Of a stretch of DNA of 64,000 nt, positions 57,001-60,000 are shown piece after piece. Source of the DNA: Styela clava. Lineage: Eukaryota. Location of the stretch: the NCBI RefSeq assembly GCF_964204865.1, contig NC_135261.1, positions 9,982,001 through 10,046,000 on the forward strand, read 5' to 3'. Each line of letters opens with the position of its first letter. Position 1 is the first letter of the stretch. Position numbers: made by a program.

Positions 57001-60000
57001 TCAATAAAACTTGGTTAAAAGAGAACTTATTATCCTACTTTATATCATAGAAGTTATCAATTTCATCTATTCATATTCTAAAATCTTGATATCGTTTTCC
57101 GTTTATCCATGAAAGGTATTTAAGACTCTACCAAGATGTATGATTTGCTTATGAACGAATGTGACATATATTATATGTATTGGTATCGTATCATTACGTT
57201 GTTTTGTTGCTGCGAGTGGAGACTTGTTAATTTGACATTAAGAAGTAAACACCTGGCACTACATAATTTTTTCACCTCCTATCTAACTGTATTACTGTTG
57301 TTGTGAACAGTGGGCTACCGAATTGAAATAAAGCACTCTTAGATATACTCAATTTTTATTAAGGTTTTAGAAATACCATGTGACGTTGCTGATTCTGAGC
57401 AAAGACAAATTTTGATAGAAAAGACAATGAAAGATTTGGGTTCCATAAATATTTTTGTTCAAAATGCTGGAGTCAATCCCCATCTTTTTAACATTATGGA
57501 AACTCCAGGAAGCGTTCTTGACAAAACATACGGCCTTCATATCAAAGCAAACTTCCAGATCGTACAAGAAATATTTCCTCATATGGCGAAAAGCAAACAC
57601 CAAGGTTCCATAATACTTACGTCAAGTGTCTTGGGTTATACAACTCAACATTTACCTGGAGCGTATGGAATCACCAAAGCATCGATCAGTGCCATGGTTC
57701 GTGCCTTTATGTCAGAGCTTTTGAATCGAAACATACGAATAAATTGTCTTGCATTTGGAGGAATTGATACTTCGTTTCTACAAAAACTTCGACAGAACGA
57801 GCCTTTCACTAAAAATATTCTGAGTTTAATTCCGATGAAACGTTTAGGAACGGTTGATGAATGCGCCGGTCTCGCGTCCTATTTAGCTTCAGACGATGCC
57901 AGTTACGTCACAGGGGAGACCTTCGTTATTTCTGGTGGGTCGTATAATAGACCGTAAGACCATGAATCAAAATATGTCGAGTAAAATGATCGGGATTAAA
58001 CAGTGTGAAATATACGTATTCATTACTCGTATTAAAATCAAACACAAACAAGAAAAATAATTAATTCTGGTTACTGCATGCATATAACTACAAGTTTTTT
58101 CTGGTTCTTGAAAACAATGCTTATCTTAATGTTTCTTTTTTCAATTCTTTGTCGACTGAATGAGCAAGAAATTTGTCAAAATGAACTTCATTGCACTATC
58201 AAGCAAAGTAGACCAGCTCTCGATAAGTACCAATCTATATTTGAGAATTTCGAAAGGTAAATGCCCAAATAAGGTATAACTTTCTTAACGTTGATTTATT
58301 TGCCAACAACCCCCGGGCGTTTAGTTAAGAACACCAGTTCTACCTCGCATAAACTTCTAGCAATTTACTACTCGTGTTCTTCAGCTCATCATTCATGAGT
58401 GATTGCAAGTTTCATATATATAGACCTAATCTATGGTGGCCCATCGTTGTCACACGTAAAATTTAAAATAAAAATAAAAAACCGAAAATAAAAAAATAGT
58501 TGTGAAAAAAACATAAAAATAATTTGTCAACGTTGTCAGGCATAATCCTACGCGCACAAATGTGTTCCCTGGGTTTCCAACTCACTACTGATTTTCTTGA
58601 GCAATATTCAATATGAAAATGTTCTATAAATTCTCCATGCTACAAGTTCAACAAGAAGGAATATATTTATAATAATGATAAGAGAATATAAAATTGAATA
58701 CAAAAATTTGTTTTTACGTGTAGAAGGTAATTTAATTGGAGAATGCTGCTTAACTACTCAGTTGTCTGAACACTCGCGATGCCGGTACCGTACCGTCTTA
58801 CCAAATACCCGTAGTCGGTTATAGTCGCTTTGCGTCTGATCGTACCGGTAGTCATGCAATCACTCATGAAAGAATGGGAGATACGGATAGTCTCGTAGAA
58901 TATAGACTACTGAAACACTCTCTGCGCCTGCCCCATACCGTACAGCCGTAACGTACCGATCCAGACAAATGATAAATCGCCCGTGCTCAACCATTTATTC
59001 CTATTCATACCTCGACTCACTATATTCGACTAAGATCAAGGAATGGATTGAAATAAATGGTTGTGCACGAGCGATTTATCATTTGTCTGAATCGGTACGT
59101 TACGGCTGTACGGTATGGGGCAGGCGCAGAGAGTGTTTCAGTAGTCTATATTCTACGAGACTATCCGTATCTCCCATTCTTTCATGAGTGATTGCATGGG
59201 TACCAGTACGGTCAGACGGTACCGTACCGGCATCGCACGAGTGTCCAGACAACTGAGCAGTCAAGCAGCATTTTCCAATTAAACTACCTTATACACGTAA
59301 AAACAAATTTTTCGTATTCAATTCTATATTCTCTTATCATTATTATAAATATATTGCTTGTGGTTGAACTTGTAGCATGGAGAATTTATAGAACATTTTC
59401 ATGTTGAATTTATTGGATATAGCTCATGAAAATCAGTAGTGAGTTAGAAACCCAGGAAACACATTTGTGCGTGTAGGATTAAGCTTGACAACGTTGGTCC
59501 CAAGCAGCATCAAATTTTCTAAAAATAAAAACGCGTGACAACGATGGGCCACGAGGCGGACCATCGTTGTCAACCTTTTTGTTTTCTTTTTATCCAATTT
59601 TTTTTTTTAATTTTTTTTTTTTTCAGTTTTTTTTTCTTAAATTTTTTTTTTTACATTTAATAATTTTTTTGGTTTTTTTTTTTTTTTTCAATTATTTATA
59701 TGTTTTTTCACAACTATTTTTTTATTTTCGCTTTTTCATTTTATTTTTTATTAATTTTACGCGTGACAACGATGGGCCACCATACTAATCCTTTATACAT
59801 GACCCTGGTATATCAGAGCTAGACAATGATAGATAAGGGAATCCCCATGTGTGAGATGTCTTTTAGCAAACGAAAATATTGATTAGTAGAGCACAAACGA
59901 GATTAACGCAATGACTCACAAAAGTAGTATAGCTTTAAAAATATTCAACGATTTTTACAATTACCTATAAGCAAGTTACTATATAGTATGGCCAGGGCAT

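What the first reader, a model, noticed from the sequence alone, without database searches (positions are those of the whole stretch)
58432..59784. Near-complete 1.35-kb palindrome with TAT..ATA ends and 6-bp TSD: candidate IS3EU-superfamily element and hairpin-RNA source
Seen: an exact 6-bp TSD confirmed by the empty paralogous site; ~95-bp outer TIRs; an inner ~470-bp-arm palindrome with a ~20-nt loop; an internal second right end at ~59533-59552; and six copies of the core CAWCGTTGTCA. Established, as I recall the Repbase scheme: TAY..RTA termini with 6-bp TSDs define IS3EU, a rarely reported eukaryotic superfamily. Inference: it inserted after the array duplicated, ~470 bp downstream of an intact DHRS4 copy, so read-through transcripts would fold into long dsRNA (siRNA or A-to-I editing substrate) and the DNA could extrude a cruciform.
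Basis: partly seen in the sequence, partly recalled or inferred. Interest (0 to 1): 0.65.

Follow-up and report, generated by a model that had tools for sequence, protein, structure and literature searches.

The report
Palindromic IS3EU-like transposon in sea squirt
A 1.35-kb, almost fully palindromic, non-coding DNA transposon sits just downstream of one copy of a duplicated dehydrogenase gene in the sea squirt Styela clava; its ends and 6-bp target duplication fit the little-studied IS3EU/GingerRoot group, which makes it an ordinary new member of a known kind.

Summary
The window is Styela clava (tunicate), not human. The element 58432-59784 is flanked by a perfect 6-bp duplication, CTAATC. 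A 95-98% identical paralogous site at 50254-50259 carries a single CTAATC and no element, so this is a real transposon insertion that postdates the local gene duplication. It has TATGG..CCATA termini, outer TIRs of about 95 bp, an inner palindrome with arms of 488 and 461 nt around a 20-nt loop, six copies of CAWCGTTGTCA (0.08 expected), and an internal pair of end-like motifs. It has no coding capacity. Papers read here say that IS3EU families always have TA..TA termini and usually 6-bp TSDs, that fungal IS3EU end in TAYGG..CCRTA, and that GingerRoot has 6-bp TSDs and 100-150 bp TIRs. All of this fits. Superfamily membership is still unproven. No eukaryotic genome collection was available, so no other copy and no transposase-encoding partner could be sought. 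The hairpin-RNA and cruciform ideas remain untested inference. Conserved ATTAAA signals near the stop codon and three AATAAA in the left TIR argue against routine read-through. Verdict: new member of a known kind, of modest interest.

The parts
58426..58431 (.). Left copy of the 6-bp target-site duplication, CTAATC
58432..58524 (+). Outer left TIR. The terminus is TATGGTGGCCCATCGTTGTCAC, followed by an A-rich tract that holds three AATAAA
58442..58452 (+). Core motif CATCGTTGTCA, 11-21 nt from the left terminus. Inferred transposase-binding site
58528..58538 (+). Core motif CAACGTTGTCA at the outer edge of the inner left arm
58528..59015 (+). Inner palindrome, left arm (488 nt). It carries about 37 nt around 58797-58838 that the right arm lacks
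59016..59035 (.). Central 20-nt loop. 7 of the 27 arm mismatches lie in the 50 columns next to it
59036..59496 (-). Inner palindrome, right arm (461 nt)
59486..59496 (-). Core motif CAACGTTGTCA at the outer edge of the inner right arm
59497..59689 (.). 193-bp segment present only in the right half; the left half has 3 nt, TGT, at this place. It holds a mini-palindrome (59523-59585) and a T-rich low-complexity tract
59531..59552 (-). Internal copy of the right end, 22 of 22 nt identical to 59759-59780, but without the terminal CATA. It contains the core at 59536-59546
59555..59572 (+). Internal left-end-like motif, 89% identical to 58435-58452, without the terminal TATG. It contains the core at 59562-59572
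59690..59784 (-). Outer right TIR, ending ...GTGACAACGATGGGCCACCATA. It contains the core at 59764-59774
59785..59790 (.). Right copy of the 6-bp target-site duplication, CTAATC
50254..50259 (.). Empty paralogous target site, with a single CTAATC and no footprint
57349..57957 (+). Last exon, including the TAA stop, of the upstream SDR gene copy (DHRS4-like, named 'tropinone reductase-like 3' in S. clava). The element begins 475 bp after the stop

Best explanation
The region is a non-autonomous, foldback-type terminal-inverted-repeat DNA transposon in the tunicate Styela clava. It most likely belongs to the IS3EU/GingerRoot superfamily. Shown: it inserted into the 3' flank of one copy of a tandemly duplicated short-chain dehydrogenase gene after that duplication, and it duplicated the 6-bp target CTAATC. 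Inferred: a DDE transposase encoded elsewhere in the genome recognised the TATGG..CCATA termini and the repeated CAWCGTTGTCA motif, which lies 11-21 nt from each tip and again at sub-terminal sites. That transposase made cuts staggered by 6 bp in the target, and repair of the gaps produced the duplication. The element encodes nothing itself. Apart from a 193-bp segment found only in the right half, it is an end-to-end palindrome. The arms differ by about 6% in substitutions, while the paralogous host flanks differ by 1.5-4.3%. This suggests the source copy was already an imperfect palindrome when it inserted. The palindrome, and the small internal fold-back of an end-like motif, most likely arose by strand-switch (fold-back) synthesis during repair or replication of an ancestral element. 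No function is implied by this origin.
For: The insertion with an exact 6-bp TSD and a clean empty paralog is shown. There is no coding capacity: none of the 8 longest stop-to-stop ORFs of the element reached a curated Pfam cut-off, and the only weak hits (E = 0.006 and 0.033) were to membrane-segment families. No ORF of the element exceeds 99 aa. Hallmarks taken from papers read here: IS3EU always has TA..TA termini and usually a 6-bp TSD (PMC10045372). Fungal IS3EU have TAYGG..CCRTA ends, TIRs over 30 bp and a 6-bp TSD (PMC12730594). In GingerRoot 72 of 77 intact elements have TA..TA termini, the TSD is mostly 6 bp, and the TIRs are 100-150 bp (PMC6839031). Other groups with a similar TSD length are excluded by their termini. 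Polinton has AG..TC and Ginger has TG..CA. Dada has no TIRs and inserts into small-RNA genes (PMC3706591), and no small-RNA gene lies at this site. Two other elements in the same window show 8-bp TSDs, so the 6-bp TSD is not a general property of this locus. On timing, flank substitution identity is 95.7%, 98.5% and 97.6%, against 94.0% for the arms and 94.6% for the TIRs.
Against: There is only one copy in the window, so neither mobility as a family nor the constancy of the TSD length is shown. No transposase partner was found or could be sought. The only integrase core (rve) match in the window's six ORFs of 150 aa or more is part of a Pao LTR retrotransposon. The TAYGG..CCRTA signature is documented for rust-fungus families only. 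The TIR length of 93-96 bp is just under the GingerRoot range. A search of 1.84 billion representative proteins with the element's 93-aa apex ORF, meant to detect other copies indirectly, gave 2 hits, and both were unrelated repeat proteins. In the searchable library no paper links IS3EU with 'ascidian' (0 papers), and the single paper holding 'IS3EU' and 'tunicate' is a study of Tc1/mariner elements. The transposase-binding role of the motif and the fold-back origin are inference.
Confidence: 0.65

Rival explanations
1. It is a non-autonomous element of a different or still undescribed DNA-transposon superfamily that happens to share TA termini and a 6-bp TSD with IS3EU/GingerRoot.
For: Classification rests on the TSD length and five terminal nucleotides of a single copy. 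No transposase was seen. No open paper found here reports IS3EU in ascidians.
Against: Among the TSD and terminus combinations described in the papers read, only IS3EU/GingerRoot fits. The match extends to TAYGG..CCRTA, not just TA..TA.
Confidence: 0.2
2. It is a composite. An element of about 1.12 kb (58432 to about 59552) and a short T-rich element of about 0.23 kb of the same family (about 59555-59784) lay end to end, lost their abutting tips, and were then mobilised as one unit through the two outer ends. This is a variant of the best explanation, not an alternative to the superfamily call.
For: The internal right-end copy matches the real right end at 22 of 22 nt and directly abuts a left-end-like motif, with 2-3 nt between them (59553-59554, or GAG when the flanks are aligned). 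The motif orientations along the element run: forward, forward, then reverse, reverse, forward, reverse.
Against: The A-rich left TIR pairs with the outermost 95 bp on the right. If the 193-bp segment is removed, the whole element is one palindrome. The two internal motifs and their neighbouring 8-10 nt are reverse complements of each other (28-nt arms, 79% complementary). That fits a local fold-back duplication better than two independent ends.
Confidence: 0.15
3. It is a functional hairpin-RNA locus. Read-through from the SDR gene, or its own transcription, yields long dsRNA that is processed into siRNAs or edited.
For: The element folds into a single hairpin of -832 kcal/mol. The apex resembles long plant miRNA precursors in structure only: MIR6140 scores 70.5 bits against a gathering score of 140, with matches through paired positions rather than shared sequence. 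MITE-derived miRNAs are known in plants (PMC8862332, search listing only).
Against: No expression data are available. ATTAAA lies 38 and 74 nt after the stop, and the second is conserved in the empty paralog. Three AATAAA lie in the left TIR before the arms. Mismatches show no strand-specific preference for G:U. No Rfam family reaches its gathering score.
Confidence: 0.07
4. It is an assembly artefact or a local rearrangement, not a mobile element.
For: Long-read assemblies can create spurious palindromes (recalled, no call).
Against: There are exact 6-bp direct repeats, a clean empty paralog, arms that differ by 6% with several indels, asymmetric content in the right half, and defined TIR tips. 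The only N run, 10773-10949, is 47 kb away.
Confidence: 0.02

Closest known systems
IS3EU superfamily (Repbase) / GingerRoot (Cerbin et al. 2019, PMC6839031)
   Same: It has a 6-bp TSD, TA..TA termini, the longer TAYGG..CCRTA signature reported for rust-fungus IS3EU, and long TIRs of about 95 bp against the 100-150 bp of GingerRoot.
   Different: No transposase is seen, the element is non-coding, and it is an almost complete palindrome. The host is a tunicate, and the open literature searched here reports no IS3EU in tunicates. Repbase itself could not be consulted.
MITEs and foldback-type non-autonomous DNA transposons (Drosophila FB, Galileo; palindromic MITEs such as MADE1 - recalled, no call)
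   Same: It is non-coding, is dominated by inverted repeats, folds into a hairpin, and would be mobilised in trans.
   Different: At 1353 bp it is longer than the usual MITE. The 6-bp TSD differs from the FB and Galileo values I recall (9 and 7 bp). Its arms are unique sequence rather than arrays of tandem sub-repeats. The 4.7-kb foldback elsewhere in this window does have sub-repeated TIRs and an 8-bp TSD.
Styx of Zymoseptoria tritici (IS3EU-related, PMC10853768)
   Same: It has a 6-bp TSD and TIR-defined ends. Styx gains new copies while parental copies are kept.
   Different: Styx is a large coding element with 36-bp TIRs. This element is small and non-coding, and only one copy of it is known.

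Membership tests
IS3EU / GingerRoot | 6-bp target-site duplication | tested here: met
   CTAATC flanks the element on both sides and occurs once in the empty paralog. The criterion comes from PMC10045372 and PMC6839031.
IS3EU / GingerRoot | 5'-TA..TA-3' termini, extended in rust fungi to TAYGG..CCRTA | tested here: met
   The termini are TATGG..CCATA.
IS3EU / GingerRoot | Terminal inverted repeats (over 30 bp in fungal IS3EU, 100-150 bp in GingerRoot) | tested here: met
   The TIRs are 93-96 bp, with 87 matches, 5 mismatches and 7 gap columns. This is slightly below the GingerRoot range.
IS3EU / GingerRoot | An autonomous relative with the same termini that encodes an IS3/IS481-like DDE transposase without an HHCC motif | not testable with these tools
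   No eukaryotic genome collection was on hand. Within the window, the only rve match among the 6 ORFs of 150 aa or more is part of a Pao retrotransposon.
IS3EU / GingerRoot | Repbase rule for non-autonomous elements: same TSD length and terminal positions 1-11 alignable (1 mismatch or fewer) to a classified family (PMC4455052) | not testable with these tools
   No Repbase or Dfam sequences were available.
IS3EU / GingerRoot | Multiple genomic copies that consistently show 6-bp TSDs | not testable with these tools
   The window holds one copy. The indirect protein-library search found nothing related.
Dada | No TIRs, and insertion into multicopy small-RNA genes (PMC3706591) | tested here: not met
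   The element has TIRs of about 95 bp. No tRNA or Rfam family lies at the site.
Polinton/Maverick and Ginger1/2 | Termini AG..TC (Polinton) or TG..CA (Ginger), as described in PMC6839031 | tested here: not met
   The termini are TA..TA.
hAT | 8-bp TSD (recalled) | tested here: not met
   The TSD is 6 bp at most. A separate MITE-like insertion in the window does show about 8 bp.

The most novel reading that the evidence does not exclude
The element belongs to a young, still mobile IS3EU foldback family in a chordate relative. Its end-to-end palindrome and the internal fold-back of an end motif would be by-products of the transposition chemistry itself, through strand switching or hairpin formation during a replicative, IS3-like copy-out step. 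If so, the architecture would report on the mechanism of eukaryotic IS3EU elements, for which the passages read here describe no bench study. The copy could in addition feed dsRNA into the silencing of its own family.
Probability: 0.08. Interest if true: 0.5.

Novelty: new member of a known kind. Interest (0 to 1): 0.25.

Why it matters
IS3EU/GingerRoot is one of the least studied eukaryotic DNA-transposon groups. Repbase held 45 families in 2022 (PMC10045372), and a 2025 paper calls its structure and function 'largely unexplored' (PMC11934779). A cleanly bounded insertion with an empty paralogous site gives exact ends, a TSD and a candidate transposase-binding motif. These could seed a genome-wide search in Styela and other tunicates. 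On its own it is one copy of a non-coding transposon next to a gene, which is ordinary.

Tried and rejected
(a) searched the SDR exon with lengths 'longer' by mistake. It gave 2 distant hits among 643 candidates and was useless. One search, with 'near', identified the organism.

(b) I looked for other copies indirectly, through proteins predicted from the element's 93-aa apex ORF. There were 2 hits at E of 0.001 or lower in 1,835,955,588 representatives. Both are tandem-repeat proteins that share only a short YGC..WG-like motif. I rejected them.

(c) Pfam on the 8 longest element ORFs gave nothing above the cut-off.

(d) Rfam gave nothing at gathering score in the whole window. The sub-threshold MIR6140 and MIR476 matches at the apex come from pairing, not sequence. 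I rejected them as homologues.

(e) I considered reading the internal pair of right and left ends as an IS3-type circle junction or tandem-dimer relic, and rejected it. Both motifs lack the terminal CATA/TATG. The left-like motif with its neighbours is the reverse complement of the right-like motif with its neighbours (A-rich against T-rich), not a copy of the true left TIR.

(f) I tested for strand-specific conservation of RNA pairing. There were 5 G:U-type and 11 A:C-type mismatches among 27, so no signal.

(g) I scanned the window for other TA..TA elements with a perfect 6-bp TSD and at least 11 of 14 TIR matches. There were 16 candidates, against a mean of 3.0 (range 0-7) in 50 shuffles. 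One is the element itself, one lies inside its own palindrome, and several lie inside the large foldback at 30-34.5 kb, pair across paralogous blocks, or have TA-rich low-complexity TSDs. I inspected these by eye only, and none was established as a second IS3EU-like element.

(h) The review by Kojima (2019) is not held in the library.

(i) The genome-contig collection holds bacteria and archaea only. I did not use it, because a short TIR pattern there would return only chance matches.

Full report
ORGANISM AND GROUND RULES

The window has 35% G+C and a CpG observed/expected ratio of about 1.0-1.3 in most 4-kb bins. That is unlike a vertebrate genome. The last exon of the dehydrogenase gene upstream of the finding was searched on its own. 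Of 764 candidates, 672 had E of 0.001 or lower. The five best hits are named Styela clava proteins, and the top one is 98% identical. One of them, P0004, maps at 100% identity to two exon-sized pieces of the window, 39484-39717 and 40833-41423. The window is therefore Styela clava, a tunicate, and not human.

The gene model was handled exon by exon only. The N run at 10773-10949 was left alone.

- **Boundaries and TSD.** The element runs from 58432 to 59784, 1353 bp. CTAATC lies directly before and after it.
- **Empty site.** The 1-kb left flank aligns to 49270-50259 at 95.2%, and the 1-kb right flank aligns to 50254-51258 at 97.4%. The two alignments overlap by exactly six bases. A three-way alignment shows a single CTAATC there with no footprint.
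- **Outer TIRs.** The ends are TATGG..CCATA. The first 22 nt are identical in both ends. The outer TIRs run for 93-96 bp, with 87 matches, 5 mismatches and 7 gap columns.
- **Inner palindrome.** Arms of 488 and 461 nt surround a 20-nt loop, with 422 matches, 27 mismatches and 51 gap columns.
- **Core motif.** CAWCGTTGTCA occurs six times, all inside the element. The expectation was 0.08, and 0 of 100 shuffles reached six.
- **Internal end copies.** A 22-nt internal copy of the right end (59531-59552) is 100% identical to 59759-59780. It abuts a left-end-like motif at 59555-59572.
- **Folding.** As RNA the element folds into one hairpin of -832 kcal/mol. The central 491 nt folded as DNA give z = -36.7.

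ANATOMY

If the 193 bp at 59497-59689 are set aside, the element is a palindrome from tip to tip. The left half has only TGT where the right half has this segment. The segment holds two things:

- A 63-bp mini-palindrome (59523-59585) with 28-nt arms that are 79% complementary. It is made of a right-end-like and a left-end-like motif.
- A T-rich low-complexity tract with periods of 15-31 nt.

Both internal motifs lack the terminal CATA/TATG. The left-like motif and its neighbours are the reverse complement of the right-like motif and its neighbours, not a copy of the true left TIR. I therefore read the mini-palindrome as a local fold-back duplication. I do not read it as a circle junction or as the ends of a second element, although the composite reading is not excluded.

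The element has no coding capacity. No ORF exceeds 99 aa, and none of the 8 longest reaches a Pfam cut-off.

TIMING

The paralogous host flanks differ by 4.3% in the 468 bp between the stop codon and the TSD, by 1.5% in the 1 kb downstream, and by 2.4% over 2.25 kb downstream, counting substitutions only. The arms differ by 6.0% and the TIRs by 5.4%. The insertion postdates the duplication, so at equal rates the arms should differ by no more than the flanks. The source copy was therefore probably already an imperfect palindrome. This is inference, and gene conversion between the paralogs could bias it.

Seven of the 27 arm mismatches lie in the 50 columns next to the loop, while a 108-nt stretch further out is perfect.

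WHAT KIND OF ELEMENT

Passages read in the papers give these rules:

- IS3EU of rust fungi 'generate 6 bp TSDs', have TIRs longer than 30 bp and 'end with TAYGG..CCRTA' (PMC12730594).
- GingerRoot has a 6-bp TSD, TIRs of 100-150 bp and TA..TA termini in 72 of 77 intact elements (PMC6839031; passages, abstract, section 21).

The element meets all of these, and its TIR is marginally short for GingerRoot.

Groups with a similar TSD length fail on other features:

- Polinton ends in AG..TC, and Ginger ends in TG..CA.
- Dada has no TIRs and inserts into small-RNA genes (PMC3706591). Neither ARAGORN nor Rfam finds such a gene in the window.

Two other insertions in this window have TSDs of about 8 bp, so the 6-bp TSD is a property of this element.

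WHAT IS MISSING

The defining evidence is a transposase-encoding relative with the same ends and further copies with 6-bp TSDs. Neither could be sought.

- In the window the element is single-copy.
- The only integrase core domain in the window belongs to a Pao LTR retrotransposon at 23176-29184.
- An indirect attempt through the protein libraries failed.
- The supplementary tables of the GingerRoot paper, which hold the species lists and the coral termini, were closed. They might show whether tunicates carry the family.
- In the searchable library 62 papers mention IS3EU. None also mentions 'ascidian'. The one that also mentions 'tunicate' is a study of Tc1/mariner elements.

THE FUNCTIONAL IDEAS

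The element starts 475 bp after the TAA stop of an SDR gene copy. Both exons of that copy are open, and the first carries a TAGTDGIG nucleotide-binding motif. ATTAAA lies at 57995 and 58031, and the paralog has ATTAAA at the position matching the second. No AATAAA precedes the element, but three lie in its A-rich left TIR.

Transcripts probably end well before the long arms, or at the latest in the left TIR. This is inference, since there are no expression data. The arm mismatches do not favour G:U pairs on either strand. The plant-miRNA models that match the apex below threshold do so through pairing only. The hairpin-RNA, editing and cruciform suggestions are physically possible and remain untested.

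VERDICT

The structural observation is real. The reading as a post-duplication transposon insertion is secure. The assignment to IS3EU/GingerRoot is the best-supported classification, and I put it at about 0.65, but it is not demonstrated. This is a new member of a known kind, of modest interest.

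Noticed in passing
window 29979-34651: A 4.7-kb foldback-type element. Its terminal inverted repeats extend over more than 1 kb (615 nt at 96% and 486 nt at 92% complementarity) and contain internal sub-repeats. It is flanked by an 8-bp direct repeat, ATTTATCA, and its tips read GGGTCTCCCTAAAACCAGGCAC. It belongs to a different family from the finding.
   Followed up: partly
window 23176-29184 (-): Two adjoining long open frames of 1175 and 826 aa carry Pao peptidase, reverse transcriptase, integrase zinc-binding, rve, DUF5641 and DUF1759 domains. 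This is a BEL/Pao LTR retrotransposon with little decay.
   Followed up: partly
window 62062-62450: A 389-bp insertion absent from the paralog at about 52499-52506. Its inverted tips are CATAGGTTCTCAAA / CAGGGGTTCTCAAA and its TSD is an imperfect 8-bp repeat (GTATAGCA / GATAGCA). It looks like a hAT-type MITE that also inserted after the duplication.
   Followed up: partly
window 48140-48478: An insertion of about 339 bp in paralog block C that is absent at 56569 in block D. I thought it resembled a tRNA-derived SINE (recalled), but ARAGORN finds no tRNA in the window.
   Followed up: partly
window 58392-58407, 50220-50235, 58855-58870 (-), 59181-59196: The 16-mer TTCATGAGTGATTGCA occurs in the host flank 25-40 bp upstream of the insertion site and in the empty paralog. 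It also occurs once in each arm of the element. That makes 4 matches against 0.02 expected. It may be chance or a target-related micro-homology, and it is unexplained.
   Followed up: partly
window 49202-49787: In the paralog with the empty site, the last SDR exon aligns to the reference protein in two frames (49202-49633 and 49629-49787). This indicates a frameshift near 49630, so the copy is a pseudogene or carries an assembly error.
   Followed up: no
window 38864-62060: The SDR array holds four first-exon copies (39484, 44928, 48582, 56672). It holds three full last-exon copies (40833, 49202, 57349) and partial ones (38864, 42357, 52096, 61647), all on the + strand.
   Followed up: partly
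window 46887-47490: An inverted-repeat structure of about 600 bp, with arms 86-100% complementary. The TA/TSD scan suggests a counterpart in the paralogous block near 55.3 kb, so it probably predates the duplication.
   Followed up: no
window 17026-18438 (+): A 470-aa open frame, serine- and asparagine-rich, with no Pfam match. It is probably a large host exon.
   Followed up: no
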